From Lachnospiraceae bacterium (GTDB lineage Bacteria; Bacillota; Clostridia; Lachnospirales; Lachnospiraceae), in the NCBI GenBank assembly GCA_017473445.1, contig JAFUKS010000140.1:1-38909 (forward strand): a stretch of DNA of 38,909 nucleotides. Direction: 5' to 3'. Made by a program: the position numbers and the translations under genes. The notes under the pieces were generated by a model. That model was not told where the DNA came from, ran no database searches, and saw only the letters and a program-made list of their open reading frames with translations. Below, piece by piece: positions 3,205 to 38,909 of the stretch; the first letter of the stretch is position 1; each line of letters begins with the position of its first letter.

Positions 3205-5004
3205 ATAATCTCTCGGAATCCTGAGTGATTATGGTCAGCTTAGCTGACAATGAACATTGAAAAGTTAATATTATCCGAAAAAGATAAAAAAGGACATGAG
3301 AAATAGACATAACGGTTGTCGCTATGCCGGGAAAGAGTGTATAATCTAAATAGGATTATGCCGTTTGTAGAATCAACTTTCTCAGGGCGGATTCATAGGG
3401 CAAATCCCATGCATCAAGATGCTGTAGCATCATGATGTGATAGAGGCGGCAGTACCACATCTTAGTAGAGCGGTGTCTGCCGTCTTCTAATTTAAAGTCT
3501 AATTTCTCACGTTTATTGGAACGTTCCGCAGAGGTTCTTGCGTTAAATTCCGTTTTCCATTCCTCACTGTCACGAGGTGGTATGTTAATCAATCTTGGAT
3601 TGTCTTTCATGGCAAGATGTACTGTTCTGCCGTACTTTGAATCAGAGCAGGGATGTTCACAGGAACAGCCGTGTTTTCTGCTTGAAAGCGGACATCTGAA
3701 CTTTAATCTGTGCTTGGATGGCTCGCAACCGTCATGATTCATACGAAGCCCTTCTTTACAGACAGGAACACCATCTTTTCCGATAGTGAAGTCATTTTTG
3801 TATTTGACTTTGATACCACGTTTTTTATTCAAATCAATGAAAGGTACGATGTTCCCGCGTTTACAGTATTCATAGATAGGCATTGCATCATGAGCGGAAT
3901 CCAAGAGTAACTTTGTAACATTGAAATCCGGAAGAAACGATTTCATTCTGAAAAATGTTTCCAGAAAGCAATGAGAATCGTGTTTTGAAGCTGGATTTAA
4001 AAAAGGGAAAACAGGAAGGTCACTTTCAGAATCGGATGCAACCAGCATATATAAATCGTATCCATGATACCAGCAGTCTCTGGAAGAATCCCATCCGATA
4101 TCACAGTCGGGTTGGGAAAAATATCTGTCACAGTTACAGTCAGAAATTCCCTTTTCAGCACAATCACAAATGCGATGGCTTCTCATTCTGTGAGAGGAAA
4201 CTACTGGAGTTCCGTCACCGGCTATAGCTAAAGAATCTTTGGTGATTAATCCTTTAGAAACAGACACATCAAGAAATTCATTTTTATAGATTTGAAGTAA
4301 GGAATGATAAGGCTGCTCCTTGGAAGAAAAGGAAGTGTTCTCAAGTTGAGGAAGTAATTCTGCAACCGTAACGTTTTCAACAGGTTCTGCTTTTGCACCG
4401 TTGTATTTCGGTTTCTTAACCTTGGTTTTGAGAGGGTGGATATGAGAAGAAAGGTTATTATCATCAGAATCCCATAAACGGTCAAAAAAATCATAAAAAG
4501 TACCAACACCCGGTGTATTTCCTACTTCAAAACCACTGAGTATGGCGTATAAAGGATTGATTTTAAGCTGAGCCGCCCAATCGGTTATGGAAGTAACCTT
4601 AAAGTCAATGGATAAAAGATAAGAGCGCTGCATACAGGAAGGAATTCTAGGAGCCGGACCGAATTTAGAGTATTTATCACGCAAAAGTACGTCAGTGTAA
4701 GATAAATCCAATGTCCAAAAACGTTCAATGATATCCCATGTAGAGCGAGCAATTGCATCTGGGTTAGGATAATATTTACGAAGATTTTTAATAACAAAGT
4801 TCTGGTAGTCGGAATGACTGCCGCAATTAACAGGTAACAAATAAAATCGCCTCCAATCGAAAAATATGTCTTATAAATAAGGGCGCGAAGCGCCGCATTT
4901 TTCGATGGATTTGTCAAGCGTTTTTGATAAAAAAGTGGGGGATTTTAATAAAAAAGGAATCTGAAAGCCTTATATTTACGAGCTTAAAGATTCCGAGAGA
5001 TTAT
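3205..5004 (-). mobile_element. Complete 1800-bp insertion sequence (IS4/IS5-like DDE, family unassigned)
   Basis: Perfect 16-bp TIRs ATAATCTCTCGGAATC (3205-3220) / GATTCCGAGAGATTAT (4989-5004); flanking TAGA direct repeats (3201-3204, 5005-5008). Confidence 0.92.
3356..4840 (-). CDS. DDE transposase
   Basis: AGDGT, WYHGYDLY, LLLDSAHD and YREK-like FNARTSAERSNKREK motifs. TTG start with GGAGG RBS; lies between the TIRs. Confidence 0.9.
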   Translation of the reverse strand: MLPVNCGSHSDYQNFVIKNLRKYYPNPDAIARSTWDIIERFWTLDLSYTDVLLRDKYSKFGPAPRIPSCMQRSYLLSIDFKVTSITDWAAQLKINPLYAILSGFEVGNTPGVGTFYDFFDRLWDSDDNNLSSHIHPLKTKVKKPKYNGAKAEPVENVTVAELLPQLENTSFSSKEQPYHSLLQIYKNEFLDVSVSKGLITKDSLAIAGDGTPVVSSHRMRSHRICDCAEKGISDCNCDRYFSQPDCDIGWDSSRDCWYHGYDLYMLVASDSESDLPVFPFLNPASKHDSHCFLETFFRMKSFLPDFNVTKLLLDSAHDAMPIYEYCKRGNIVPFIDLNKKRGIKVKYKNDFTIGKDGVPVCKEGLRMNHDGCEPSKHRLKFRCPLSSRKHGCSCEHPCSDSKYGRTVHLAMKDNPRLINIPPRDSEEWKTEFNARTSAERSNKREKLDFKLEDGRHRSTKMWYCRLYHIMMLQHLDAWDLPYESALRKLILQTA

Positions 5005-6849: not shown

Positions 6850-8148
6850 CTATTTATTGACCTTCAACGTCACCATGGCACAGAAAAATTCCTCATTTTT
6901 CTCTATCTCCAATATGCCACCCTCGTCCTCCACCGTTTTCCGGACATTCCGCAAGCCCAGTCCATGATTCCGCTTATCCTCCTTGATTGTGTCAAAGGTA
7001 TTATCGGCCAAGCCTTTGCTTACTTCCGACAAGGTATTCTTTATTACGATTTGGAAATATTCCCTTCCCTGGGTAAAGGTGACCTCCAGCAAGGACGGTC
7101 CCTGACACCGGTTTAATTCCTCCACTGCATTTTGCAATAAATTAGCATAGATGGTACACAACTGCATCTGGTCCATGGTGGTCTGAATCCGCCCGGTAAC
7201 CTTTACTTCCACATCCGCTCCCAATGCATTGACATAATGGTTGGTCAGAATATCCAGTATATCATTGCCCGTGGAATAACACCGTTTTTGTATCTCCTCC
7301 ATCCTTTGCTGCATCTGGTACAGATAAGCCTCCACTGCCTGCAGATCCTTTTGCTCTACCAAACGTTCCAGACAAATCAGATGATTGCCCATATCATGCC
7401 GATACTTCCGGGTATCCTCTTCCCGTTCCAATAAAGTATTGTAATAGCGCACCTGCATATCTTTAATATGCTTTTCATTATCATACAATTCTTTTATTTT
7501 TTTATTGGTTCTATCTACGTAAACGGAAAACAATCCCAATGCACTCACACCAAGGTTTGCCAATATACATACCGCTAACGTCAGCCCTTGCAAAAGTTCA
7601 TTATCCACATGCTTTCCCACCCATTTCAGGCCGGCTATGGCAAAGAGTATAGCTATCGCCATGAATATGACTACATTTACGACATTCCGCTGAAACCAGG
7701 ACTTAATATCATTTTGGGACTTAGCAGATAATTGCTTTTTAAGGAGAACAATTATGCCAAACAGGAATAACTGCACCGTATATACAATCAACTGCTTGAT
7801 ATCATTGTTCATGGTCATCTTGGTAAAATGCAGGACACCATCTGCCAGTGCCAGCAAAAGCTCAGCCAGACAGTTGACAACAAAAAACAGAATCATGGTT
7901 CCCGTAATCCGTGCACCTATTTTTTCCTTGGGCACAATATAAATTACCGCAACCGACATACAGTGGTTTACCACTCTGGCAAAAGACAGATTATCGCATC
8001 CATATACCAACCAAAATATAATAAAAGCAACCATGCCTATCAAAGGTACATGGTACCGTCGCAAAACCTTCCCATAAAAAAGGTAATAGACCATATAGTA
8101 TGTTATTGTTTCTACCAAATAGATTACTAATAAAATACTTACCGTCAT
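6850..8148 (-). CDS. AgrC/VirS-like GHKL sensor histidine kinase
   Basis: Multi-TM N-terminus, RKYRHDMGNHL H-box, NLLQNAVE N-box, HGLGL G-box. Confidence 0.9.
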   Translation of the reverse strand: MTVSILLVIYLVETITYYMVYYLFYGKVLRRYHVPLIGMVAFIIFWLVYGCDNLSFARVVNHCMSVAVIYIVPKEKIGARITGTMILFFVVNCLAELLLALADGVLHFTKMTMNNDIKQLIVYTVQLFLFGIIVLLKKQLSAKSQNDIKSWFQRNVVNVVIFMAIAILFAIAGLKWVGKHVDNELLQGLTLAVCILANLGVSALGLFSVYVDRTNKKIKELYDNEKHIKDMQVRYYNTLLEREEDTRKYRHDMGNHLICLERLVEQKDLQAVEAYLYQMQQRMEEIQKRCYSTGNDILDILTNHYVNALGADVEVKVTGRIQTTMDQMQLCTIYANLLQNAVEELNRCQGPSLLEVTFTQGREYFQIVIKNTLSEVSKGLADNTFDTIKEDKRNHGLGLRNVRKTVEDEGGILEIEKNEEFFCAMVTLKVNK

Positions 8149-8855
8149 TATCTCCCCCGATTGTATTTCAAATCATAATAGATATATTGCTGCTCAAACT
8201 CTTTACGCTTTCGCTTGGATACCGGAATCACTTCCTTCGCAATCGTCACTTCTCCATTATTATACTTGCAAATCCAACGCATGTTTACAATATATTGTCT
8301 ATGTATTCGCACAAAAAATCGGGAATCCAATTGCTCCTCAATATTATTTAAGGACTCTTCTTTTCTGAACAACCGATTGCCCACCTGAAATTCCGAATAG
8401 CCATTGTAAGCCTGCACATAAAGAATATCCTTTTGCTTCACACGGCACAGTATGCGCTGATAAAACAGTTCAATACTATCATCCTTTTCTGTCAGCTCTA
8501 AGGTAGATAATACAGCCTCTTCTACTTCTTTGTAACTAAAAGGCTTGGTTACAAAACGAAATGCTCCAATATGAAACGCCTCTTTAAAACGTTCCACTGC
8601 ACTTGTAGCCATAATAAGCTTGCAATCTGAATTTCTCTGGCGAAGAATCTCACCGGTCTGAATACCATCCAATCCCGGCATCTCAATGTCCAAAAAAACT
8701 GCATCAAAATAACTTTTTTGATTCACCAATTCCTCACCTGAGGAAAAGGTTTCAATCACGTATTTGCAGCCCCTTTTGTTTAAAATAGTTTCCAAAAGCT
8801 CCTTTAATTGTTCAAGAATACACGCTTGATCATCACATAATGCCACTCTAAACAT
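8148..8855 (-). CDS. LytTR-family response regulator
   Basis: VALCDD, FLDIEMPGLDG, F.TKP receiver and FVRIHRQYIVN LytTR motifs. Start placed at MFRVAL; overlaps the kinase start. Confidence 0.92.
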   Translation of the reverse strand: MFRVALCDDQACILEQLKELLETILNKRGCKYVIETFSSGEELVNQKSYFDAVFLDIEMPGLDGIQTGEILRQRNSDCKLIMATSAVERFKEAFHIGAFRFVTKPFSYKEVEEAVLSTLELTEKDDSIELFYQRILCRVKQKDILYVQAYNGYSEFQVGNRLFRKEESLNNIEEQLDSRFFVRIHRQYIVNMRWICKYNNGEVTIAKEVIPVSKRKRKEFEQQYIYYDLKYNRGR

Positions 8856-8891
8856 ATCGGCCCCCCAATATAGTCTCTCAATCCCCTGCAA

Positions 8892-8920
8892 ATCATATCA
8901 TATTTCTGCAAATTTGTAAA
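8892..8920 (-). promoter_or_regulatory. sigmaA promoter of the regulator-kinase operon
   Basis: TTTACA-N17-TATGAT with TGn extension. Confidence 0.6.
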
Positions 8921-8995
8921 TTCTTCTATATAATTAAATACATAATTAAATGCATAATATTCGTACTTTTGAAGCTCTCCGGGACTTTTGTCTAA

Positions 8996-12172
<3,177 letters not shown>

Positions 12173-12221
12173 ACCATTCCGTCGTCAACGAAAATACAAC
12201 CTCCACAACATGATACAAAAG

Positions 12222-12256
12222 TGGCTGCAGAAACTCTTAGACGGTTTCTGCAGCCA
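12222..12256. terminator. Bidirectional terminator overlapping the LytTR gene stop
   Basis: TGGCTGCAGAAAC-N9-GTTTCTGCAGCCA with T-rich tails on both strands. Confidence 0.7.
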
Positions 12257-13019
12257 TTCTTTCTTTTCTTCTCGCTTCCTGCAACTGATATATCATGTTC
12301 ATATGCCGCTCGCTTAGTTCCTTTTGGTACTTACGGCTAACCGGTACTTCACGTCCTTCGCCCAAGGCTATAAAGGTAGGCAATACCTCTTTAATCTTGT
12401 CAAAGTTCACCACATACCCTTGATGTGCGTAGCAAAATACACTTTGATTCAACCGGTCATACAGACTTTTCAGTGATTCGTAGCATACCACTTCACCAGC
12501 TTCCAGATGAATCACACTCTGATTTCTGCGTTTCTCAATGTATAGAATATTCTGCATATCCACAAGGGTCTTTCCTTTCTGGGTATTTATCTCCAGAAAG
12601 CGTTTCTCCGCTTCTTTTATGTCATATTGATGAAAAATCTGAATAACTGCCTTTTCTACCAACTTCTTTACATCCACATACTGGGCAGGCTTTATGACAT
12701 AACCTAAGGCTTCTACTTTATAAGCATCTAAGGCATATCTGTCATGACTGGTCACAAAGCATATGATTCCATTTGCTCCCTTTTGACGTAATCTTTTTGC
12801 CACATCCATACCGGACATTTTGGGCATATCAATGTCCAAGAAAAACAAATCATATTCCTTATCACCTGATGCCACATCCTCTAATAACATTTCACCATCT
12901 GTGTATCTCTCGATAGAAAACGTATATTTATTCTCATTCATACATGCTGTCACTAAAGAATATAGGCTATCCCTAAAAAATTCTTCATCATCACATATTG
13001 CTACACTTATATTCTTCAT
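12237..13019 (-). CDS. LytTR-family response regulator
   Basis: VAICDDE, FLDIDMPKMSG, YVIKP, FCYAHQGYVVN and VPVSR motifs; GGAGG RBS. Confidence 0.92.
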   Translation of the reverse strand: MKNISVAICDDEEFFRDSLYSLVTACMNENKYTFSIERYTDGEMLLEDVASGDKEYDLFFLDIDMPKMSGMDVAKRLRQKGANGIICFVTSHDRYALDAYKVEALGYVIKPAQYVDVKKLVEKAVIQIFHQYDIKEAEKRFLEINTQKGKTLVDMQNILYIEKRRNQSVIHLEAGEVVCYESLKSLYDRLNQSVFCYAHQGYVVNFDKIKEVLPTFIALGEGREVPVSRKYQKELSERHMNMIYQLQEARRKERMAAETV

Positions 13020-13142
13020 ATGAGCGCCTCCGTTTCCTTGGATATTTTACACTTTCCTTGCTTTTCAATGGCTTGTGCCAAATCATCTGTACCTTCTCCA
13101 TAATATAATCTAGTTCGCACCTGTTCTTTCATACCATAATAT

Positions 13143-13301
13143 TTATCTCTTAAATACAACAATAAGTTTTAACACATTAGCCGGATCAGCTGACACATTA
13201 ATCAATTCCCAACCTTCTTTACACATCTTTTCGATAGTTTCCTCTGCCAGAGAAAAATCGCTTCCTTGTCTGGAAATATGCATTATTTTAACTTCTTTCA
13301 T
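13143..13301 (-). CDS. Small DUF4177-like protein (52 aa)
   Basis: MKEVKI...EETIEKMCKEGWELINV...VVFKR pattern; AGGAAGG RBS before ATG 13301. Confidence 0.65.
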   Translation of the reverse strand: MKEVKIMHISRQGSDFSLAEETIEKMCKEGWELINVSADPANVLKLIVVFKR

Positions 13302-13353
13302 CCTAATATCCTTCCTATTTTCAACAGTAAATTGCTCCCAATCTCGTGTAGCC

Positions 13354-15003
13354 TTATGGAAGTCTCCCACCCTGGATTTCCTGTACCGCTCTCCGTAACA
13401 CATCATCCCACAGAAGTCGGTTTTCATAAGTATACATATCCATATTATCCGTCCCGTTCTCCATTTCTTCCGGTTCTCTTTCCTTTACATAAATGTGCGG
13501 AGCCGTACCTACCACTGCGTTATTGGTACCATCAATGTTATAGGCCAGCTCAGGCATATAAATGAACACCAGCCCACTGGACGGCAAATAATCCATAAGG
13601 AAAGAACTCATTCTTCCTTCTCCGGCAGTATTCGTACCAATAAGTGTTGCGTTCTTACAATCCTTCAACACAAGCGCGAGCCTATCTGCTGCGGAGCCGG
13701 TTTCTCCCGATATCAGAACATAGACATTCATGTCCTCCGGTACATTCATTCCCCCTGTCAATCTGGTAATTTCTTCTGAAACCAAATAGTCCTGAGACTG
13801 TCCTAAACCATTTTCTGCCACATAGTCAGATTTTTTTAATGCCAGTTGGCGGGACGCTTTCCAGTTACTTACGATTTTCTTGGCATATTTTGTATTCGGT
13901 AAATACCATGTATGATTTATCTCCAAATCATCTCCATACAGATATGGATACAAATACATTGCCACGTAATCAAAGTTCCCTCCAAAATTATTCCGAATAT
14001 CCAAAATAATATCTGTGCACTTTATATCCTTCAGTGTATCTGCCACCGATTGCATTGTCCATTTATCTATTTGGCCAATATTCAAATATAGGATTTCATT
14101 CTCACTATCATAATAGCTGTAAAACATGTCATCAGCAACAGAAACCGGCTTCTGCTCTTTCTTTTTCACTCCCAATGCCCTGGAATAACCATCCAATACA
14201 CTTGCCACTACATCCACGTATACCTGCGACTCATGGATTGTCCCTTTCTCATCTCGAAATTTAATAGTCACCGGCACTGCCATGGCATCGGAATACGGCT
14301 CTGCACAAAAGGTCAACCATCTCCTAAAGGCTTTTTGATTTATATAATCGTACTTGATCGGCTGTGCCATTGTTCTGTCTATGTAGTCGTCCACTGCAAT
14401 ACCATCTATTTCCAGTAAGATATCTCCATTCTCAGCACAATACTCACCTGTGTAGGATTGATAATGAAATTTGTTACTTATAATCGAAAGTTCATATAAC
14501 TCTGTGCAGCTGTCCCGCATCAATGTATTCCAATATACTGATTTGTTTTTTATTCCTCTGGTGGATAAAACCTCCTCTATATTCCAACACCCAAAAGTAC
14601 CATAATAATCATAATCCGGGTAGGGTACATCCGTATGAAAGGTAGGCACATCCTCCATAATCGCATTCATTGCTGCATAAAAATCCAAATCAGTCTCTGT
14701 GTCAGTAATCATCTCTTTATATAAATCATGCCGTTCCACAAAATCAATCCCGTATTGCTTCTCTATACCGGATAAAGTATCCAATGGAAGTGATGTGGCA
14801 ATACAATTATATAAATATTCGAAATCCTTCATTTTCTCTTCCATTGACATGTTTAGCTCTATAATGGGACGTTCTGTGATTTCATTTACCTTTCTGGCTA
14901 TCTTATGACGCATCAGATAGCCACTTCCAATCAATGCCATGCATGAAATTAAATTCAAAATAATAATCAACATTCTAATATATTTATGGTTTTTTTCTTT
15001 CAT
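13354..15003 (-). CDS. Membrane-anchored S41-family serine peptidase
   Basis: N-terminal TM helix; IILDIRNNFGG, VLISGETGSAAD, LIGTNTAG and GTAPHI motifs. Confidence 0.85.
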   Translation of the reverse strand: MKEKNHKYIRMLIIILNLISCMALIGSGYLMRHKIARKVNEITERPIIELNMSMEEKMKDFEYLYNCIATSLPLDTLSGIEKQYGIDFVERHDLYKEMITDTETDLDFYAAMNAIMEDVPTFHTDVPYPDYDYYGTFGCWNIEEVLSTRGIKNKSVYWNTLMRDSCTELYELSIISNKFHYQSYTGEYCAENGDILLEIDGIAVDDYIDRTMAQPIKYDYINQKAFRRWLTFCAEPYSDAMAVPVTIKFRDEKGTIHESQVYVDVVASVLDGYSRALGVKKKEQKPVSVADDMFYSYYDSENEILYLNIGQIDKWTMQSVADTLKDIKCTDIILDIRNNFGGNFDYVAMYLYPYLYGDDLEINHTWYLPNTKYAKKIVSNWKASRQLALKKSDYVAENGLGQSQDYLVSEEITRLTGGMNVPEDMNVYVLISGETGSAADRLALVLKDCKNATLIGTNTAGEGRMSSFLMDYLPSSGLVFIYMPELAYNIDGTNNAVVGTAPHIYVKEREPEEMENGTDNMDMYTYENRLLWDDVLRRAVQEIQGGRLP

Positions 15004-15026
15004 AATCTATACTCTCGCTTTTTAGT

Positions 15027-15065
15027 GTTGTGCACAGGCGTAGTCAAATACAACCTATGCACAAC
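15027..15065. other. Intergenic stem-loop after the peptide genes
   Basis: GTTGTGCA...TGCACAAC outer stem; no U-tract on the minus strand. Confidence 0.6.
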
Positions 15066-15077
15066 TCCTATTGCTAT

Positions 15078-15275
15078 TTATTTACCATTATACAAATCCT
15101 GATAAGCCACTTGCTTACCTGTATCATAGGCATCGGATTTTGCAGACTCATACGCAGTATAAGCCAAGCATCCTACTGTTGCAATAGCTCCGACCACAGT
15201 AGCAATAGCTACTACTAAACCACCATCAGTCTCTTGTAATTCATCAATTTCCAATTCAATAAAACTACTATTCAT
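15078..15275 (-). CDS. Double-glycine-leader peptide B (class II bacteriocin-like)
   Basis: Leader FIELEIDELQETDGG, hydrophobic core LVVAIATVVGAIATVGCLAY...; AAGGAGG RBS. Confidence 0.85.
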   Translation of the reverse strand: MNSSFIELEIDELQETDGGLVVAIATVVGAIATVGCLAYTAYESAKSDAYDTGKQVAYQDLYNGK

Positions 15276-15288
15276 CTTTTTCCTCCTT

Positions 15289-15522
15289 TTACCATGTGGG
15301 CTTTTCAGGGTAATCCTTGATTAAATCAGGTCTACCATTACTATTTACCGTATCGTTATAACCGTTTATTTCAGCAACTCGAATATTATACATAATTAAG
15401 TTTGCTAAATAAATTCCTGTACGAGCACCTAAATAACTATTGACATTTCCTCCGTATGTATCAAAAATCTCATCATTTTTCAGTTCTGAAAAACATGCAC
15501 TATTTTTTACTGCAACTTCCAT
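15289..15522 (-). CDS. Double-glycine-leader peptide A (class II bacteriocin-like)
   Basis: Leader FSELKNDEIFDTYGG, core with GxxxG (GARTG) and NGYNDT; GAAAGG RBS. Confidence 0.82.
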   Translation of the reverse strand: MEVAVKNSACFSELKNDEIFDTYGGNVNSYLGARTGIYLANLIMYNIRVAEINGYNDTVNSNGRPDLIKDYPEKPTW

Positions 15523-15555
15523 ATTACTAATTTTCCTTTCAAATAAAGTATTTTC

Positions 15556-15663
15556 TTTACACTCACTCGAAAAAGCTATATACTTTACCTAGGTACTTTT
15601 TCATAAGTGCTTGTGTTGTTAGACTCCGAGGGTTTTCGCGAATTTATCGGAGTCTTTCTATTT
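15556..15663 (+). ncRNA. Candidate ~70-nt antisense sRNA (promoter to terminator)
   Basis: TTTACA (15556-15561)-N17-TATACT (15579-15584), then hairpin AGACTCCGA/TCGGAGTCT (15621-15655) with a TTCTATTT tail. Confidence 0.55.
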
Positions 15664-15750
15664 ATATAAAGCTTTGCTTGCTGCTATCTTTTCACAGCAG
15701 GCTCCGCAATATATCGTGATTATTAACATTGTATTTCTCTCTACTTTTAT

Positions 15751-15820
15751 AGCTTATTTCATCTGCATCCTACTTGCAATACGCATGTGCTATTTGGTAC
15801 GATTTCGGTGCTATTTGGTA
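15751..15820 (-). promoter_or_regulatory. Direct-repeat promoter P1 (peptides A/B)
   Basis: GTGCTATTTGGTA at 15787 and 15808 (period 21); TTGCAA-N17-TAAGCT. Confidence 0.8.
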
Positions 15821-15851
15821 ATTTTAATTTATTCACAATTCTCCTACCTAT

Positions 15852-17609
15852 TTACTGCCGAAACATCTTGTCAATCAGTACCTCCAACACACTCTTAGTC
15901 TCTATAACCACCTTTGTCTCGCAAAGCATACCTACTCTTAAGGTCACCTCCTCACCCATACGATTACAGAGTTCTCCCGGATTTACGCTGGTTTCAACCA
16001 CATAATAAGCACTACCGCTATCATTCACCTTTAAATCAGCTGACACAAATGTCACTTCTCCCCTCATGGTTCCATACTCTCTGGAGGGATAAGCACCGAC
16101 TTCATAGGTCACCTCCATGCCCTCATGTACTTTCGCAATATCCGTATTTTTCACATAACTTCTGACCATAAAGGAGCCCGCTTCAGTCTGTGGTATGATG
16201 GATAACACCTGTGCACCCGCGGTGAGATAGTCCCCTTCCACCAAATCGGTTGCCAAGTTAATTGTTCCATCCATAGTAGCCTTTACAGTAGCATTTTCTA
16301 CGCTTTGCTGCAATCCCTCTATCTGTTGTAAAAGCTGTGCCCGACTCTGTCTGCAAGTCTCCAGTTCTTCCGCTACACTATACTTCTCCTGGGTCACAAA
16401 GTTTTCTATTTCCAGACTAAAGCCCTGATCCTTTAAATTATTTTTTCCATTGGTGTACTCTAACTCCGTACCCTCACAAACAGCGAGATTCTGCTCATAC
16501 GCCAAAATGCTGTTCTCAACAGACGCAATACTCTCCTTCTCATAAGAAATTAATGCACTGCTTTTTTGTATATTGTAATCATTGATATTACTATCCAACA
16601 CTGCTTTGGCAGACTTCTCGACACTAATCTGTGCCTCCAAGCTATGTATCTGTTGCTCCAGCCCAGTAACCGTCGCCTGCAAATCCTCATCTATAACAGG
16701 CGCATCTGCAGAATCATCCACACTTGCTGTATCCACTGCCTCGCCTACTATCGGCTCCTGCTCAGGTATTGTTTCCTCAACACTCACCGTTAAAATAGGC
16801 TGCCTTGCCCCTTCTAACTTGGTCTGCAACGCCTGCATCTCAGTCTCTAATGTATGGATCCTATTTCCCGAAGCTGTGCTCTCATCTCTCCATGCCTTTG
16901 TCTTACTATCATATTGAATGATAATATTCTGATACTGAGCCAAATAATTATCCATATAATTCCGATAATAGCTTTCCGCTTCACCAAAGGAATTATTTCT
17001 ATTCTTTATTGCTTCTATCAATTGTCTGGACTTATTGATGGCTTCCTTGTAGTAATCAGCCATAGTTTCATTGGCATTCAACTTTGTTTCATAAGCCAGT
17101 AATTGCTCTGAGTAAATCTGTTTGGTGCTTTCCTCTTTTAATTCCACCAACATTTTCCGCGTAGTAACCTCACTATAATACAAATTGTCCGATGCACTTA
17201 CCGGAAACTCTTCTCCATCCTGCAGCCACGCCTGGTATACTTTAAGCATTTCTTCCTTTTCATCATTATCTGCCAGCTGTTTCTTTAATGACTCTAACTG
17301 CAAAGATTGTGCTTCATGGGAAATCGTATATAGTACATCTCCCTTTTTCACAGTCTGACCATCCTCTATCATTCGTCCGGTTATGGTCCCGGATACCTGA
17401 TTCGTCACTGTCGCCACTTCATCTGCAGCTGCGACCGTACCCGTGGCTTTCACCACAATATCCATCGTAAAGAATCCCATCCAGATAAATGCTACAATTA
17501 TCATAGCCAATATCAAATATATAAACCCTGACAGTACCGGATTGGGGCGTGCTTCATACACTTCCGTACTATCCGACATGTCCTTCATATCTACAATAAT
17601 CGGTTTCAT
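15852..17609 (-). CDS. HlyD/LcnD-like secretion accessory protein
   Basis: Single N-terminal TM, lipoyl-like half motifs (GQTVKKGDVL; VKATMDGTI), long coiled coil and beta-barrel end (YGTMRGEVTFVS, LRVGM). Confidence 0.9.
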   Translation of the reverse strand: MKPIIVDMKDMSDSTEVYEARPNPVLSGFIYLILAMIIVAFIWMGFFTMDIVVKATGTVAAADEVATVTNQVSGTITGRMIEDGQTVKKGDVLYTISHEAQSLQLESLKKQLADNDEKEEMLKVYQAWLQDGEEFPVSASDNLYYSEVTTRKMLVELKEESTKQIYSEQLLAYETKLNANETMADYYKEAINKSRQLIEAIKNRNNSFGEAESYYRNYMDNYLAQYQNIIIQYDSKTKAWRDESTASGNRIHTLETEMQALQTKLEGARQPILTVSVEETIPEQEPIVGEAVDTASVDDSADAPVIDEDLQATVTGLEQQIHSLEAQISVEKSAKAVLDSNINDYNIQKSSALISYEKESIASVENSILAYEQNLAVCEGTELEYTNGKNNLKDQGFSLEIENFVTQEKYSVAEELETCRQSRAQLLQQIEGLQQSVENATVKATMDGTINLATDLVEGDYLTAGAQVLSIIPQTEAGSFMVRSYVKNTDIAKVHEGMEVTYEVGAYPSREYGTMRGEVTFVSADLKVNDSGSAYYVVETSVNPGELCNRMGEEVTLRVGMLCETKVVIETKSVLEVLIDKMFRQ

Positions 17610-17630
17610 AGTATCCTCTCATTCTAAAAA

Positions 17631-19823
17631 TCATTCGTTAGATAATGACTGCTGTCTCACCAGCTCTGCATATTTTCCACCCAATTCTCTCAATTCTTCA
17701 TGGGTTCCGCTTTCGATAATCTTACCCTTTTCCATTACGTAAATCTTATCGCAGTTTTTAATAGTACTAAGCCTATGTGCGATGAAAATAGTAGTCATAT
17801 CCTGACAAAACTCACGAATCGTTGTATCCAGGGCACGCTCCGTAATTGCGTCCAGATTACTGGTAGCTTCATCCAAAATCAGAATATCCGGTTTTTTTAG
17901 CATAGCTCTGGCAATTGCCAGACGCTGTCTCTGTCCACCCGAGAGATTGGACCCGTTTTCTTCCAGTCTGGTTTCATATCGTAGTGGCAATTCATTAATA
18001 AAATCATGCGCCTGTGCTTTCTTTGCCGCCTCTATTACGTCATCCATAGTTACATCGTCCATACCCAGCGTCAAATTCTCCAGAATACTTCCACTAAAAA
18101 GGAATGTTTCCTGAGGAATATAGGCAATCTTGTCACGAAGACTTTCTATCTGAATATCTTCTATATTGTTATGATTAATTAATATGGCCCCTTTTTCCGG
18201 CTGATACAAATGCAGTAAGAGCTTGGACAAGGTGGTTTTACCGGAGCCGCTTTCCCCTACAAAAGCCACCTTTTCTCCCTGTTTAATATGTACATTAATA
18301 TTCTCTAATACCAACCGTCTCGTACCATAGCGGAAATCCACGTCTTTGAATTCAATATCTCCGCTCAGAGACTCCGGCTTCATCTTTTTTTGCTCGTTTT
18401 CACTCTTTTCTGCATCCAAATCCAGAATTTCACCCAAACGCTCTGCTGCAACCACCGCGGTCTGCATCTGTGGCTGTAAATTAATCAAATTCTTTACAGG
18501 ATCCAAGAAATATACCAACAGAGAATTGAATGTAATCAACTGTCCCATGGTTAGATTCCCTTCTATTACATTTACACCACCTACCCATAGTATTACAATT
18601 CCACCAATCAGCTCTATTGCAACCTTCAATGATGACTGTATATTTCCTACCAAAGACAAGTTAAATATACTTTTCAATAATTTTACAAATTTGTGCTCTG
18701 TCTCTAAATTGGCCTTACGCTCTGCATTATAAGCCTTTACGGTCTGGATACCGTTCAGAGATTCTACCAGATAAGAGGTTAATTGTGCATTGTCCTCCAT
18801 CTGCTTCTGATTTAGTTTTTTATATTGCTTATTAAAGGTAATTACAATAATCCCATACAATACTACGATGGCAAAGGCAATACCAAACATGGTTGCATTC
18901 TGCATATATAAGATAATTGCTCCTGCCACTGCCATCAACGTATCAATCATAATGGTAAGGGTTGCACCTGATATGGCATCTCTTACCTTGGATGCATCCG
19001 TAAAACGGGATATGATTTCGCCCACTTTTCTGGTGCCGAAGAAATTCATCGGCAATGCCAACACATGCCTGTAATATCCGAGCAATAACGCAATATCCAG
19101 CTTCTGGCTCAAATAAAGCAATAAATGTGAACGAAAAGCAGATAACAAAACTCTGAAAACATTTAGTATGATTACTCCCACCGACAGCGTAAACAATGTC
19201 TGTCTCAGCCCATCCGGTAGCACACTATCCATAAGTTCTTGAAAGTAAAATGCTGCCAAAATTCCTAATAGCGTGTATATCAGGGATGCCACAAAAATAT
19301 GTGCCAGCAACTTTTTCTGAGGAATCAGCAAATGAATAAATCGCTCAAACAGCCCCTGTGTATCATCACCTTTTTTGAAGCTTTCATTTTTCATTAATAA
19401 AATTAGGATACCTGTCCACTGATATTTGGGTGGCTTATCCTCTTCATGTACCTGTCCAAAAAATTCTTCCGGCGTTAGCTTTACAATACCGCAACCCGGG
19501 TCAGCAATGATAACCTGCTTCTTGGTAATTTTATGTATAACTACATAGTGCAACAATGCTCCATCCACTACTACATGTGCAATGCAGGGAAGGGGAAACT
19601 CTGAGAAAAAAGCATCTGCATTTCCCTTTACACCCTTTGCAGAAAACCCCAACTGTTCTGCCGCCTGTATCACCCCATATGCATTTGTTCCCTGCTTATC
19701 CGTTCCGGCTATTTCTCTGATTTTGGAAATGCTTATCTTATATCCGTTTTGTTTGGATATTGTCGCCAGGCACGCTGCTCCGCAATCCGTTATATCATGT
19801 TGTTTTACGCAGTAGTATTTCAT
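17631..19823 (-). CDS. Peptidase C39-containing ABC exporter (PCAT)
   Basis: QHDITDCGAAC, LLHYVV, IADP; TMD; Walker A GESGSGKT, LSGGQRQR, ILDEATS. Confidence 0.96.
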   Translation of the reverse strand: MKYYCVKQHDITDCGAACLATISKQNGYKISISKIREIAGTDKQGTNAYGVIQAAEQLGFSAKGVKGNADAFFSEFPLPCIAHVVVDGALLHYVVIHKITKKQVIIADPGCGIVKLTPEEFFGQVHEEDKPPKYQWTGILILLMKNESFKKGDDTQGLFERFIHLLIPQKKLLAHIFVASLIYTLLGILAAFYFQELMDSVLPDGLRQTLFTLSVGVIILNVFRVLLSAFRSHLLLYLSQKLDIALLLGYYRHVLALPMNFFGTRKVGEIISRFTDASKVRDAISGATLTIMIDTLMAVAGAIILYMQNATMFGIAFAIVVLYGIIVITFNKQYKKLNQKQMEDNAQLTSYLVESLNGIQTVKAYNAERKANLETEHKFVKLLKSIFNLSLVGNIQSSLKVAIELIGGIVILWVGGVNVIEGNLTMGQLITFNSLLVYFLDPVKNLINLQPQMQTAVVAAERLGEILDLDAEKSENEQKKMKPESLSGDIEFKDVDFRYGTRRLVLENINVHIKQGEKVAFVGESGSGKTTLSKLLLHLYQPEKGAILINHNNIEDIQIESLRDKIAYIPQETFLFSGSILENLTLGMDDVTMDDVIEAAKKAQAHDFINELPLRYETRLEENGSNLSGGQRQRLAIARAMLKKPDILILDEATSNLDAITERALDTTIREFCQDMTTIFIAHRLSTIKNCDKIYVMEKGKIIESGTHEELRELGGKYAELVRQQSLSNE

Positions 19824-19864
19824 CTTTGTTACCAGCTTCCCATGTAGTCGTTTTTGTCTTTTAC

Positions 19865-19934
19865 AGATTATCTGAAAAAATTATACCATGCAATATGCAT
19901 GTGCTATTTGGTAGGATTTCGATGCTATTTAACA
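19865..19934 (-). promoter_or_regulatory. Direct-repeat promoter P2 (PCAT-HlyD)
   Basis: Repeats at 19901 and 19922 (period 21); TTGCAT-N17-TAATCT. Confidence 0.8.
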
Positions 19935-20086
19935 TTCTGGGTATCTACTATGCCAAGCAAATCGAAAACCATATTCTTTATGCAACAAATAATATTATTT
20001 TGATCCCCTCCTTGTGTATCCAAAAGTTCATCCATTACCAATGTTTCAAACATATCTTCTTTTCCTATGCTGTTCTTATTTTGCAT
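19925..20086 (-). CDS. Double-glycine-leader peptide C (candidate inducer pheromone, 53 aa)
   Basis: MQNKNSIGKEDMFETLVMDELLDTQGG|DQNNIICCIKNMVFDLLGIVDTQNVK; GAAAGG RBS and its own promoter P3. Alternative start at 20053. Confidence 0.72.
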   Translation of the reverse strand: MQNKNSIGKEDMFETLVMDELLDTQGGDQNNIICCIKNMVFDLLGIVDTQNVK

Positions 20087-20120
20087 ACTTTCTACCTTTC
20101 CCTTCATCGATTGTAAACTC

Positions 20121-20190
20121 AGCATATAAAAAATGTTTTTTAATTGCAATACACATGTGCTAGTTGGTAAGATTTCGGTGCTATTTGACA
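20121..20190 (-). promoter_or_regulatory. Direct-repeat promoter P3 (peptide C)
   Basis: Repeats at 20157 and 20178 (period 21); TTGCAA-N17-TATGCT. Confidence 0.8.
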
Positions 20191-20214
20191 TAAATTTGCT
20201 ACTTATGCTATACT
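20185..20214 (+). promoter_or_regulatory. sigmaA promoter of the divergent kinase
   Basis: TTGACA-N18-TATACT with TGn extension. Confidence 0.75.
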
Positions 20215-20248
20215 TTTCTGGGATTAATTGATGTAAAGGGGTATTATT

Positions 20249-21529
20249 ATGAATTGGTTTCATGCTATCGCAAATTGCGTGATTTGTTTATTTCTATTCT
20301 TCACGCTAGACTTATTTCTTAACTCATTTTTTGAATGCAAATCAAAAGAGAAACAACTTCCATTTAAGCTAGGTTTAATTATTCTTTGGATAATTCTAGC
20401 TTTAACACCTTCCATCCCTTATTCGTTTATCTTTATGTTGTTATTGGATTTTCTGTATACTTTTTTTATTTTAAAAGGTAAAGCAAATATAAAATTACGC
20501 GCCCTTATAAAATATGAATTATATTACTACATCTGTTCAATCGTTACATCCCTACTACATACATTACTTACAATGGACTTGCTTATTTTCCATTCCAATG
20601 TTATTTATGTAGAATATATTAATATCCTCGGTGCCTTTTATTTATATGTTATCCTTAGCATGTACATTATCCATAAGAAACTTTCTATGTTTTCTTCCGG
20701 AAAGATATATAAACGCTATTTTTTAACTATCACTATAATATCCGTTATGCTACTTACTGCCAGCAGCATGTTGCTTGGTAGTACCCTTATTAAGCCGGAG
20801 GATTTGGTTCCGCTTATTTTCACCTTGCTTCTGGTGGTGACACTTCTGTGTATCTCCATCTATCGCAAAGTGATTACCGTATTGGAAGAGGGCACCCGGG
20901 CCAAGCTGGAAGCAGAGAAGAATGCAATGCAGCTAGATTATCAGGAGCATATTGAGGAGAACCTAAAAGCACTGTCCACACTGCGACATGATTTTAAAAA
21001 CCATTTGATTATCATTCAGGAATATGCCAGATGCGGCAATTATGAAAAGTTACAGCATTATGTTGGGGCTATTCAGGAAGAGCTTTCTCCTACCGCATTA
21101 ATCGATACTCCCTCTCACTTGATTTCTTCTCTATTAAATGCCAAGAATGAAACCTGTAAGAGAAACGGTATCAAGCTTAACTTTGAACAGTGTTTCACAA
21201 ACGTTCATGCAGATGATTTCCATATGGTAACGATTCTCAGTAATCTGATGGACAATGCCATTACTGCGGCGGCAAAATGTGAAAATGGATATATTAATTT
21301 ATCTATATCGGAAGTAAATTCCTATTTAGAGATTAGTTGTGTGAACAACCATAAAGAAGAGATTATTGAAAAGAATAATGTGTTCCAAACCACCAAGACC
21401 ACCCAAAGAGAAATTCATGGTATCGGTATTATCAGCATCCAAAAGACTGTAGATAAATTACGGGGTAAAATCAAAATTGATTATACAGAAGATACCTTTA
21501 CCGTAAATATTTTGTTACCCAATTATTAA
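20249..21529 (+). CDS. AgrC/ComD-like GHKL sensor histidine kinase
   Basis: About 6-7 TM segments, LRHDFKNHL, NLMDNAI and HGIGI motifs. Confidence 0.9.
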   Translation: MNWFHAIANCVICLFLFFTLDLFLNSFFECKSKEKQLPFKLGLIILWIILALTPSIPYSFIFMLLLDFLYTFFILKGKANIKLRALIKYELYYYICSIVTSLLHTLLTMDLLIFHSNVIYVEYINILGAFYLYVILSMYIIHKKLSMFSSGKIYKRYFLTITIISVMLLTASSMLLGSTLIKPEDLVPLIFTLLLVVTLLCISIYRKVITVLEEGTRAKLEAEKNAMQLDYQEHIEENLKALSTLRHDFKNHLIIIQEYARCGNYEKLQHYVGAIQEELSPTALIDTPSHLISSLLNAKNETCKRNGIKLNFEQCFTNVHADDFHMVTILSNLMDNAITAAAKCENGYINLSISEVNSYLEISCVNNHKEEIIEKNNVFQTTKTTQREIHGIGIISIQKTVDKLRGKIKIDYTEDTFTVNILLPNY

Positions 21530-36647: not shown

Positions 36648-38909
36648 TTATTCCCTAGATTTAATTGCTACAATCGTTGACGTATTTGCTACTTTTCGGA
36701 CTTCTAATCTCGTTACTAAAATACATACTATACAGCAAAATATAGACAAGGCTAATAAAATCTTTCCTGCACTGGCTGTTCCTATACATACATCGGAAAA
36801 CATTACTGATAACGCGCAAAAAATAATATACAAAACTCCTCCTGCCATACATGACGCTGCACCCACTAAATATATTTCAAAAGAAAGTATTTTTCTAATT
36901 TCTTTTTTTTCTAATCCCAAGGAACTTAATATACCCATTTCATATAGTCGTCCTGAAACAGCAATTTTGCTATATGAGTGCATTAAAACAACCAGCAACA
37001 ACGTGATAATGATTAACGCTATCGCAAACATCATTTTCCATATTCCGGTTGTAGAAACAGCGTTTTCAAATCGCTCTTCATAATTTGATACGTAAGCATA
37101 TTGGGCTGCCAGCTCACTATCATTAAATGACTGCACAATTTGCATGTTCTTACAATAACATTCTATTTTGCTGGGAAGAACTGCCGAAACCTCTTGTGTC
37201 CAGTCATCATCCAACACCACTTCATAAGATGCTCCGCTATGAATGCCTACTATCCTACACTTGTATGCCCTATTTGCACTTATATAATATTCCTGTGCCA
37301 AAACTTCATCTAATTTGTCTTTTATACACGGGTCTGCATTCTTAACATTTTCAAATGTAAAATCTACGTATTCTCCAGTCATTGAATAGTAAATATTGCG
37401 TACCATATCTGTACTAACTACAATTTGATTAGATAGGGGGGAGGTGCCATAGATAATGTCCCCATCTGTTTCTGCTACAACAAATCCTGATGCATCCTCA
37501 CTATACATTATCTTGGATAAATCTTCTACGTTTGATGCTAAATAAATAGATGCAAACAGATTCTCATACGTAGAGGCGGATATAGATTCACCTACAATAT
37601 ACGTGAAATATATTCCATCCACATTTTTCTCTTGGTTAACTCCTACAATATCATAAGTCTTACTGATTCCAAAATCACTTGTTATGGTTATTGTCTTTCC
37701 TATTGCTTCACCATCATAATATTTCTCCGCCATGTCTTTTGCTAAAATAATCTGATACTGACTTTGAGGAAACGAACCAATTACTGCATCTGTCATTAGT
37801 CGTTCATAAAAGAAATCCGTTAAGCTTATCAGCTTAACATTTATATGATCTTCTGTATTTTTCACAAAATAGTCAATATCATAAACAGGCACAACTCCTT
37901 CAAACAAAGGAGAAGACATGACATCCAGATACAATTCATCCGGAATGGAAGAATAGTCCCCACCCATAATAATTGATTCAACTGTTTTTATCCCCAAAGG
38001 ATAAGGATAAAATGTTATCATATCCGCATCATAATAGACCGTATTCATTTCCTTCATTTCTACACTCATATCCATATTCATCGAACACACAATTCCCACA
38101 GTGGCAAATGCCACTGCCATTGCTAAAATGATAGAAATAAATTTTGCTTTATATCTACGTATATTGTTGAAGGTTAACGCTTTTACTATATTAAAATCAA
38201 GTCCTTTTCCTTTTCGTTTTTCCTTCTTGCTTCCAGTCCTCTCCCCTATTGTCCCAAGATAATTATTTACGTCATCTACTACTTCACCATCACTAATCCT
38301 AATGATTCTATCCCCGTATTTGTATGCCATTTCCTCGTTATGACTTACAACTATTACAATACGTTCAGATGAAAGAGTCTTTAACATATCAAAAACTTGT
38401 ATAGAATTCGTTCGGTCCAAACTTCCTGTAGGCTCGTCCGCCAAAAGTACAGATACATCTTTTATAACAGCACGAGCCATTGCTGCCCTTTGTCTCTCTC
38501 CTCCACTAAGACCGTCAACCTTTCTATCAGCACATTCCTGCAATCCAAAATAAGCAAGCGTACTCTCCAGTTCTTTTTCAGACCTTTTTACACCAGAAAT
38601 TTGTGTTGCCAACATTACATTTTCCTTAATTGTAAGCCCATTGATTAGATTCGAGTCCTGAAATACAAACCCTAAATAGTCCCTTTGATATCGCGAACAG
38701 CCGGTAATATGCTCTATTTCTTGTCCTATCTCAAATGACACTTCTCCGTCGGTTGGTGCATCCAAGCCTCCGATAATGTTAAGTAATGTACTTTTTCCCG
38801 CACCGGAATCTCCTATAATAAATGTTAATCCTGTACCAATTTCAAGGTTAATATCTCTTAGAATTACATTTTTTCCAATATCTTTCCGTAGTCCCTCAAT
38901 TTTAATAAC
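36648..38909 (-). CDS. Fused ABC ATPase/FtsX-type permease (MacB-like), 5' end beyond the window
   Basis: The frame stays open to the window end: VIKIEGLRKD...GDSGAGKSTLLN, LSGGERQR, LADEPTG.LD; C-terminal R..EMGIL.SLG permease motif. Confidence 0.88.
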   Translation of the reverse strand, partial: VIKIEGLRKDIGKNVILRDINLEIGTGLTFIIGDSGAGKSTLLNIIGGLDAPTDGEVSFEIGQEIEHITGCSRYQRDYLGFVFQDSNLINGLTIKENVMLATQISGVKRSEKELESTLAYFGLQECADRKVDGLSGGERQRAAMARAVIKDVSVLLADEPTGSLDRTNSIQVFDMLKTLSSERIVIVVSHNEEMAYKYGDRIIRISDGEVVDDVNNYLGTIGERTGSKKEKRKGKGLDFNIVKALTFNNIRRYKAKFISIILAMAVAFATVGIVCSMNMDMSVEMKEMNTVYYDADMITFYPYPLGIKTVESIIMGGDYSSIPDELYLDVMSSPLFEGVVPVYDIDYFVKNTEDHINVKLISLTDFFYERLMTDAVIGSFPQSQYQIILAKDMAEKYYDGEAIGKTITITSDFGISKTYDIVGVNQEKNVDGIYFTYIVGESISASTYENLFASIYLASNVEDLSKIMYSEDASGFVVAETDGDIIYGTSPLSNQIVVSTDMVRNIYYSMTGEYVDFTFENVKNADPCIKDKLDEVLAQEYYISANRAYKCRIVGIHSGASYEVVLDDDWTQEVSAVLPSKIECYCKNMQIVQSFNDSELAAQYAYVSNYEERFENAVSTTGIWKMMFAIALIIITLLLVVLMHSYSKIAVSGRLYEMGILSSLGLEKKEIRKILSFEIYLVGAASCMAGGVLYIIFCALSVMFSDVCIGTASAGKILLALSIFCCIVCILVTRLEVRKVANTSTIVAIKSRE

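What the first reader, a model, noticed from the sequence alone, without database searches (positions are those of the whole stretch)
12237..21529. Self-contained quorum-controlled peptide system: three GG-leader peptides, PCAT/HlyD, S41 peptidase, split LytTR/GHKL pair
Seen: regulator and kinase bracket the cluster ~7 kb apart on opposite strands. Between them lie an exporter with intact C39 Cys/His motifs, three peptides with F-x-x-L-x-x-D-E-(L/I)-x-x-T-x-GG leaders and an S41 peptidase; no modifying enzyme or typical small TM immunity gene is visible. The segment is visibly AT-richer than lacZ and the thi operon. Known: the layout parallels blp/pln/com three-component systems. Inference: an uncharacterised gut-clostridial bacteriocin/signalling locus with protease-based protection, probably acquired horizontally.
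Basis: partly seen in the sequence, partly recalled or inferred. Interest (0 to 1): 0.82.

Follow-up and report, generated by a model that had tools for sequence, protein, structure and literature searches.

The report
Bacteriocin regulon with matched protease immunity
A gut bacterium carries a likely quorum-controlled peptide-export cluster of a well-known type, but where a small immunity gene normally sits it has a membrane-anchored protease that, across related bacteria, travels one-to-one with its own peptide family and likely protects the producer by cutting that peptide.

Summary
All genes and the three double-glycine leaders are there; the leaders rank 1, 2 and 4 of 43,338 short reading frames in the genome. 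In congeners the kinase, regulator, a pepC-like peptide and this operator sit together but drive different cargo. So the chassis is a Blp/Pln-type three-component regulon and pepC the likely pheromone. The new part is the cargo. pepB-pepA-S41 recurs as a unit in Oscillospiraceae under agr control. In 14 peptide/S41 pairs each peptide family has its own S41 clade, even among paralogues in one genome. S41-linked peptides have polar C-terminal tails, while the Gly-rich cargo without S41 stays hydrophobic and is mostly followed by small membrane proteins. The S41 keeps His/Ser/Glu and is also retained without peptide or exporter in one draft genome. Best reading: cognate S41-protease self-immunity (about 0.5); tail-trimming maturation and non-killing peptides remain open. 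No activity was tested. New variant of a known kind.

The parts
12220..12258 (.). 16-bp hairpin between convergent lacZ and regulator; likely terminator closing the cargo operon
   Evidence: stem of 16 pairs with T-rich tail; inverted repeat I15
12237..13019 (-). REC-LytTR response regulator (260 aa), last gene of the cargo operon; cognate of the kinase
   Evidence: orthologues 55% (G194) and 49% (G106) lie directly behind the pepC counterpart next to the kinase orthologue
13016..13162 (-). 48-aa remnant ORF marking a variable slot; strains in runs X4-X6 carry other DNA here (1,827 nt in X6) ending in an S41-type C-terminus, and a 2-TM bPH_4 protein (P0023) shares this ORF's C-terminal end
13143..13301 (-). 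52-aa soluble DUF4177-like ORF, function open
   Evidence: PF13783 E 0.0012, below cut-off; NF053529 E 1.2e-5, below cut-off; RBS upstream
13354..15003 (-). S41 peptidase, 549 aa, one N-terminal membrane helix, His123/Ser437/Glu462; proposed cognate immunity protease
15078..15275 (-). pepA: 19-aa leader + 46-aa core (hydrophobic helix, polar Tyr-rich tail; predicted 4,773 Da)
   Evidence: TIGR03949 E 0.013, below cut-off
15289..15522 (-). pepB: 25-aa leader + 52-aa core (predicted 5,919 Da); likely partner of pepA
   Evidence: same order pepB-pepA-S41 in L010 and L012
15771..15817 (-). operator copy 1 (AAATAGCAC-N12-AAATAGCAC), 249 nt before pepB
15852..17609 (-). HlyD-type secretion accessory protein (585 aa, one TM)
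17631..19823 (-). peptidase-containing ABC exporter (C39-TMD-NBD, 730 aa); only C39 domain found in the genome
19885..19931 (-). operator copy 2, 62 nt before the exporter
19925..20086 (-). pepC: leader + 26-aa amphipathic core (predicted 2,951 Da); likely inducing pheromone
20141..20187 (-). operator copy 3, 55 nt before pepC; abuts the -35 box of the divergent kinase promoter
20185..20214 (+). best sigma-70-type promoter match in the region (11 of 12, extended -10), facing the kinase
   Evidence: consensus match only
20249..21529 (+). AgrC/BlpH-type histidine kinase (426 aa, six predicted TM, H-box His247, GHKL)

Best explanation
The cluster encodes a C39-ABC exporter, three double-glycine peptides, a GHKL/LytTR pair and three copies of one operator, and it likely works as a Blp/Pln-type quorum circuit in which exported pepC would activate the kinase and regulator, which would switch on export and a likely two-peptide bacteriocin (pepB+pepA) whose neighbouring membrane-anchored S41 protease likely protects the producer by cutting it. 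Shown by sequence: genes, leaders, catalytic residues, operator, conservation of the chassis in congeners and of the pepB-pepA-S41 cassette in another family, one-to-one pairing of peptide families with S41 clades. Inferred: GG cleavage and export, pepC as the signal, positive feedback through the regulator at the end of the cargo operon, killing activity of pepA/pepB, and proteolytic immunity, probably by cleavage in the polar C-terminal tail.
For: Operator: 3 hits above 14 bits in 2.6 Mb, all in the cluster; six more copies in G062 and G194 align, with an invariant TA---T box about 30 nt downstream; the 9-bp/12-bp geometry is that described for putative BlpR sites (PMC12943804, passages). 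Chassis: regulator-pepC<>kinase adjacent in G194 and G106, pepC<>kinase in G062; pepC core identical in 5 of 5 cluster members. Cassette: pepB-pepA-S41 in L010 and L012 at 44-52% identity but beside agrB/agrD. A GG peptide lies directly upstream of 12 of 52 close S41 clusters (14 of 52 after inspection by eye), 0 of 35 distant ones and 4 of 568 control ORFs, all four exporters. S41 identity tracks peptide similarity in 14 pairs (Spearman 0.65, 0 of 5,000 permutations), and paralogues within L010 and L089 group by peptide, not host. Tail polarity: 13 of 13 S41-linked against 5 of 21 other peptides. His/Ser/Glu invariant in 14 of 14 peptide-linked S41s. Genome G684 keeps four intact S41 ORFs, one 70% identical to a peptide-linked clade, while neither that peptide, pepB nor a C39 exporter was found. 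Precedents: the S41 protease NSR inactivates nisin (PMC4828448, passages; 4y68 Z 15.9, rmsd 5.3, 264 aligned); Abi proteases are suggested to degrade cognate class IIb bacteriocins (PMC8538875, passages).
Against: No activity, expression or cleavage data. Most subfamily S41s (38 of 52 clusters) have no GG peptide upstream, and many stand alone in housekeeping neighbourhoods, so the family has peptide-independent uses. Adjacent genes co-inherit by linkage alone, and kin inflate the Mantel and Fisher figures. pepA and pepB cores are neutral to slightly acidic and reach no curated bacteriocin cut-off. NSR is described from nisin non-producers. G684 is a draft genome of unstated completeness. In L082-L084 and L102 the S41 itself is split. 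One peptide before a broken S41 (L096) has a non-polar tail (0.07), which would make the table 13 of 14 against 5 of 20.
Confidence: 0.5

Rival explanations
1. Same circuit, but the S41 is a maturation enzyme: it trims the polar C-terminal tail, which would keep the exported hydrophobic helix soluble and inactive, and so releases the active peptide.
For: S41 enzymes are C-terminal processing proteases. All 13 S41-linked peptides have a polar tail, and the invariant core residues of pepA and pepB cluster in the tail, as a recognition motif would.
Against: It leaves the cassettes with no immunity gene: L089 runs peptide-S41 four times with nothing between peptide and S41. It does not explain intact orphan S41s in G684 or S41 kept beside a truncated exporter in L013, L014 and L078.
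Confidence: 0.2
2. pepA and pepB are not antibacterial but signals or membrane/surface peptides, and the S41 turns them over or is regulated by them.
For: Cores are not cationic, no curated bacteriocin family passes, and Atlas neighbours are mostly unnamed (best 0.90). One S41-linked peptide (L047) lacks the hydrophobic helix altogether.
Against: They are interleaved with Gly-rich class II-like peptides and small membrane proteins in the same exporter loci, and replace such cargo under the same operator in congeners. One S41-linked peptide passes TIGR03949 (L089, 32.9 bits, cut-off 21.5). No second kinase accompanies each peptide family.
Confidence: 0.2
3. The S41 is a general surface protease or resistance gene that hitch-hikes with the peptides and has no specific relation to them.
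For: 38 of 52 close S41 clusters have no peptide upstream; several follow a LytTR/GHKL pair with no peptide (L019, L022, L036, L042).
Against: One genome would not need three or four 26-33% identical paralogues each behind its own peptide; the tail dichotomy and 4 of 568 control rate argue for a specific link.
Confidence: 0.1

Closest known systems
Streptococcal Blp (BlpC/BlpH/BlpR/BlpAB) and related Pln/Sil three-component class II bacteriocin regulons
   Same: GG-leader pheromone next to an AgrC-type kinase, LytTR regulator, C39-ABC exporter with HlyD accessory, 9-bp direct repeats 12 bp apart, swappable cargo cassettes (PMC12943804, passages).
   Different: Different operator sequence; kinase divergent from the pheromone; regulator moved to the end of the cargo operon; immunity slot holds a 549-aa S41 protease instead of small membrane or CAAX proteins.
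Nisin resistance protein NSR (S41 peptidase)
   Same: S41 fold, single N-terminal membrane helix, Ser/His catalysis; cuts near the C-terminus of an antimicrobial peptide (PMC4828448, passages; structural match Z 15.9).
   Different: NSR is 320 aa, acts on a lantibiotic and is described from non-producers; this protein is 549 aa, 13% identical in the structural alignment, closest by Foldseek to CPAF, and sits with unmodified peptides in the putative producer.
Abi/CAAX protease immunity proteins (SkkI, PlnI, PlnL, PncP, BlpY)
   Same: Protease gene in the immunity position of unmodified class II bacteriocin operons (PMC8538875; PMC12943804; passages).
   Different: Those are putative membrane-bound metalloproteases; this is an extracytoplasmic serine protease with a distinct clade per peptide family.
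Thuricin CD cluster gene trnE
   Same: Recalled from memory as an S41-type peptidase in a two-peptide producer cluster; the primary paper could not be retrieved, and the review passage seen calls TrnE an enzyme of unknown function (PMC8172795).
   Different: Thuricin CD is a radical-SAM-modified sactipeptide; no per-peptide pairing is described in the passage seen.
Class IIb lactobin A/cerein 7B family (TIGR03949)
   Same: GG leader followed by a hydrophobic helix; pepA and homologues score 15-21 bits.
   Different: All below the 21.5 cut-off; polar Tyr-rich tail; pepB core has no match beyond the leader.

Membership tests
Three-component (pheromone/HK/LytTR) class II bacteriocin regulon | C39-ABC exporter with intact catalytic residues plus accessory protein | tested here: met
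Three-component (pheromone/HK/LytTR) class II bacteriocin regulon | GG leaders with hydrophobic or beta-branched residues at -4, -7, -12 | tested here: met
   (T/L-I/L in all three); positions from PMC6363468 passages; genome-wide rank
Three-component (pheromone/HK/LytTR) class II bacteriocin regulon | Cognate AgrC-type kinase and LytTR regulator linked to a short GG peptide | tested here: met
   orthologues adjacent in G194 and G106
Three-component (pheromone/HK/LytTR) class II bacteriocin regulon | 9-bp direct repeats with 12-bp spacer at pheromone, exporter and cargo promoters | tested here: met
Three-component (pheromone/HK/LytTR) class II bacteriocin regulon | Peptide-induced transcription | not testable with these tools
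   needs synthetic pepC and reporter or RNA data; no RNA holder listed
Class IIb two-peptide bacteriocin | Two adjacent unmodified GG peptides followed by one immunity gene | tested here: inconclusive
   pepB-pepA adjacent in window, L010, L012; pepA without pepB in L011; following gene is S41, whose role is the open question
Class IIb two-peptide bacteriocin | Synergistic antibacterial activity | not testable with these tools
   bench assay needed
TIGR03949 lactobin A/cerein 7B | HMM score above 21.5 bits | tested here: not met
   pepA 15.3; homologues 20.8 and 18.8; pepB no hit
Peptidase S41 (His/Ser/Glu type) | PF03572 above cut-off, S41 fold, conserved His, Ser, Glu | tested here: met
   (63 bits, cut-off 24); His 119, Ser 119, Glu/Asp 120 of 121 representatives
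NSR family | TASSAEM motif and about 320 aa | tested here: not met
   motif here is TGSAAD, 549 aa; NSR features
agr (cyclic peptide) quorum system | agrB and agrD | tested here: not met
   no AgrB among 35 window ORFs scanned; agrB/agrD present only in the Oscillospiraceae loci
Modified RiPP cluster | Modifying enzyme in the cluster | tested here: not met

The most novel reading that the evidence does not exclude
Gut clostridia carry an undescribed class of exchangeable toxin-immunity cassettes: GG-leader bacteriocins with a hydrophobic helix and a polar tail, each paired with its own co-evolved, membrane-anchored S41 protease that confers specific immunity. The cassettes move between families and between pheromone and agr control, and non-producers stock orphan S41 genes as an acquired immunity array.
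Probability: 0.45. Interest if true: 0.72.

Novelty: new variant of a known kind. Interest (0 to 1): 0.56.

Why it matters
The regulatory and export chassis is textbook. If the S41 reading is right, it adds a third way for makers of unmodified bacteriocins to protect themselves (beside binding proteins and Abi/CAAX proteases) and offers a producer-side origin for NSR-like resistance proteases. It also gives a mining rule: a supplementary table of IIBacFinder lists Peptidase_S41 as not related to class II bacteriocins (PMC12648112, supplement file 10), so peptide-S41 cassettes are a blind spot. The 14 natural peptide/protease pairs make specificity directly testable in a cross matrix.

Tried and rejected
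Complex prediction of S41 with pepA gave no verdict (score 0.02, mark 0.32); it is not used as evidence. No RNA holder was listed for the cargo region. A single-sequence locus search with the S41 found nothing; the alignment search did. A homologue search with pepA returned only its own cluster. The second LytTR/GHKL pair at 6850-8891 was considered as the controller and rejected: no operator copy lies near it, and orthologues of the 12237/20249 pair are the ones adjacent to pepC in congeners. An empty lacZ-thiC site was looked for and not seen: three congener thiC loci (81-83% identity) lack the cluster but also lack this lacZ arrangement, and listed contigs of four runs carry the cluster (tables cut). 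No plasmid record covers 80% of the S41 (8 weak hits of 72,556 records). Six short tail motifs found no known class II bacteriocin in the 13 IIBacFinder supplementary files, only unrelated predicted peptides in file 13 (first places only shown). Ten literature searches listed no paper on S41 peptidases paired with unmodified GG peptides; subscription papers are largely outside the library. The second S41 of strains X4-X6 was not found among fetched proteins. The Atlas search for pepB did not complete. Earlier findings of this scan held nothing on this system.
Full report
Observation. The exporter passes TIGR01193, keeps Cys14, His92 and Asp108, and is the only C39 domain found in the 78%-complete genome. 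The three leaders fit the stated motif, with Thr at -4, Leu/Ile at -7 and Leu at -12, the positions the LahT protease binds (PMC6363468, passages). A leader profile trained on 18 peptides from other loci ranks them 1, 2 and 4 of 43,338 short segments in the genome. GC is 38.5% against 44.1% for the genome; 3.3% of 419 windows are as low, and lacZ and thi lie above average.

A 47-nt element occurs three times (15771, 19885, 20141) and nowhere else in 2.6 Mb. It is a 9-bp direct repeat with a 12-bp spacer, placed before pepB, the exporter and pepC. Six further copies in congeners G062 and G194 align with it, with an invariant TA---T box about 30 nt downstream. The same geometry is described for putative BlpR sites (PMC12943804, passages). 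Two small ORFs lie between S41 and the regulator: a DUF4177-like peptide and a 48-aa remnant.

The chassis. Kinase orthologues were found in 4 of 269 genomes of the genus, the window's included, close exporter orthologues in 10 of 269. In G194 and G106 the order is regulator, short GG peptide, divergent kinase; in G062 peptide and kinase. So the split pair is cognate, and in this genome the regulator lies at the end of the cargo operon, where it would give positive feedback (inference). The pepC counterparts have 26-27-aa cores that differ between species, while pepC is identical in 5 of 5 cluster members; two counterparts give weak ComC and BLP hits, below cut-off. pepC is therefore the likely pheromone. 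In G194 and G106 this chassis drives Gly-rich peptides with small membrane proteins and no S41 in the stretches fetched, so cargo is exchangeable.

The cargo. An S41 alignment fetched 68 genome loci and 62 metagenome loci. pepB-pepA-S41 recurs in two Oscillospiraceae genomes (L010, L012) at 44-52% identity, and pepA-S41 in a third (L011); L010 and L012 carry agrB/agrD-type genes instead of a GG pheromone (families checked for L010). Similar S41s are rare in the own genus (4 of 269) and family sample (3 of 401). After collapsing at 90% identity and dropping S41s with under 500 nt of upstream DNA, a GG peptide stood directly upstream of 12 of 52 close clusters, 0 of 35 distant ones and 4 of 568 control ORFs (not de-duplicated; all four were exporters); two more were found by eye. 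In these 14 pairs S41 identity tracks peptide similarity (Spearman 0.65, 0 of 5,000 permutations). Four peptide families each match one S41 clade, and paralogues in one locus (two in L010, three tested in L089) fall with their peptide family, not with each other (one search is the quick tree). Linkage alone can give such co-inheritance, so this shows stable cassettes, not function. Among 34 distinct peptides of 30 or more residues from 31 loci (two at contig edges dropped), 13 of 13 S41-linked ones have a polar last 20 residues against 5 of 21 others; moving one peptide that precedes a broken S41 gives 13 of 14 against 5 of 20. Gly-rich peptides without S41 are mostly followed by a second such peptide or a small hydrophobic ORF. 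Kin are not independent, so the P value overstates.

The protease. It has one N-terminal membrane helix and a confident model (pLDDT 89.5, pTM 0.87) whose best Foldseek matches are CPAF (E 8e-17); NSR aligns at Z 15.9, rmsd 5.3 over 264 residues, behind several CtpA-type and Bacteroidetes S41s. His123, Ser437 and Glu462 are invariant in 14 of 14 peptide-linked members and nearly so in 121 full-length representatives, 112 of which have the membrane helix. Assigning them as the catalytic set rests on conservation and recalled CPAF chemistry.

Immunity or maturation. For immunity: the S41 takes the slot behind the peptide and no other candidate is in the cassette; G684 keeps four intact S41 ORFs, one 70% identical to a peptide-linked clade, while searches found neither that peptide, pepB nor a full C39 exporter (draft genome); L013, L014 and L078 keep the S41 beside a truncated exporter. 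Strains in three studies (runs X4-X6) carry other DNA between 13065 and 13135, 1,827 nt in X6, whose printed end reads by eye as an S41 C-terminus; a two-helix bPH_4 membrane protein ends like the remnant ORF. The slot thus varies as immunity slots do (inference; the interior was not read). For maturation: S41s are C-terminal processing enzymes, and the tails hold the conserved residues. Against any specific role: 38 of 52 close S41 clusters lack a peptide, and some S41s beside dead exporters are themselves split. I put immunity at 0.5, maturation 0.2, non-killing peptides 0.2, passenger 0.1.

Origin. Exporter, HlyD and regulator have GC3 within the lower normal range (6th-25th percentile), the peptides far below it. 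The chassis has close relatives in congeners at other chromosomal neighbourhoods; the cargo's nearest relatives are in Oscillospiraceae. Cassette exchange is likely; direction was not tested. Laid runs include bovine and sheep gut metagenomes.

What is known. NSR is an S41 protease that inactivates nisin in non-producers (PMC4828448, passages). Abi proteases are suggested immunity factors for class IIb bacteriocins (PMC8538875, passages). An S41 gene was noted in predicted thiopeptide/lantibiotic clusters (PMC5410138, one passage). TrnE of thuricin CD is recalled as S41-like; only a review passage calling it of unknown function was seen (PMC8172795). IIBacFinder's supplement marks Peptidase_S41 as unrelated to class II bacteriocins (PMC12648112, passages and supplement searches). 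Passages of the Hungate1000 survey showed nothing on this arrangement (PMC13289728). Ten searches listed no paper on the pairing; most subscription papers are not covered.

Verdict. The regulon is a new member of a known kind; the paired peptide-S41 cassette is a new variant, well supported as a genetic unit and untested as a mechanism. Interest 0.56.

Noticed in passing
window 6850-8891: A second LytTR regulator/GHKL kinase pair with no agrBD and no copy of the operator, in an AT-rich stretch beside an IS1182-like transposase (3356-4840, below cut-off).
   Followed up: partly
window 15012-15784: One contig in run X6 joins 15012 to 15784 with 14 letters between (table 5c), which would be an allele with the operator directly before the S41 and no pepB-pepA; side lengths were not given and it may come from another organism.
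   Followed up: no
window 15595-15660: Inverted repeat in the 249-nt leader before pepB; loose ends in run X6 suggest similar sequence elsewhere. Possible terminator, attenuator or insertion scar.
   Followed up: no
L019, L022, L036, L042, L105, L108: S41 of this subfamily directly behind a LytTR/GHKL pair with no peptide upstream: possible sensing-resistance modules reminiscent of nsr operons.
   Followed up: partly
L047 about 8600-8990: GG-leader peptide before an S41 whose core looks by eye like a LysM domain; a second GG peptide lies upstream.
   Followed up: no
L157 13128-13675, L158 12634-12786, L159 6766-7400: Congener exporter loci with short Tyr-rich GG peptides beginning F/I/G-Y-Y next to a different LytTR/GHKL pair; another pheromone or cargo type.
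   Followed up: no
L013 9666-12206 (Huintestinicola butyrica, cultured strain): GG peptide, intact S41 and an exporter truncated at 111 aa: a cultured candidate for an immune non-producer.
   Followed up: partly
window 36648-38765: AT-rich (35.8% GC) fused ABC ATPase/FtsX permease at the contig end, resembling peptide-resistance or export transporters.
   Followed up: no
window 19925-20002: The pepC core has two adjacent cysteines absent from the three congener counterparts.
   Followed up: no
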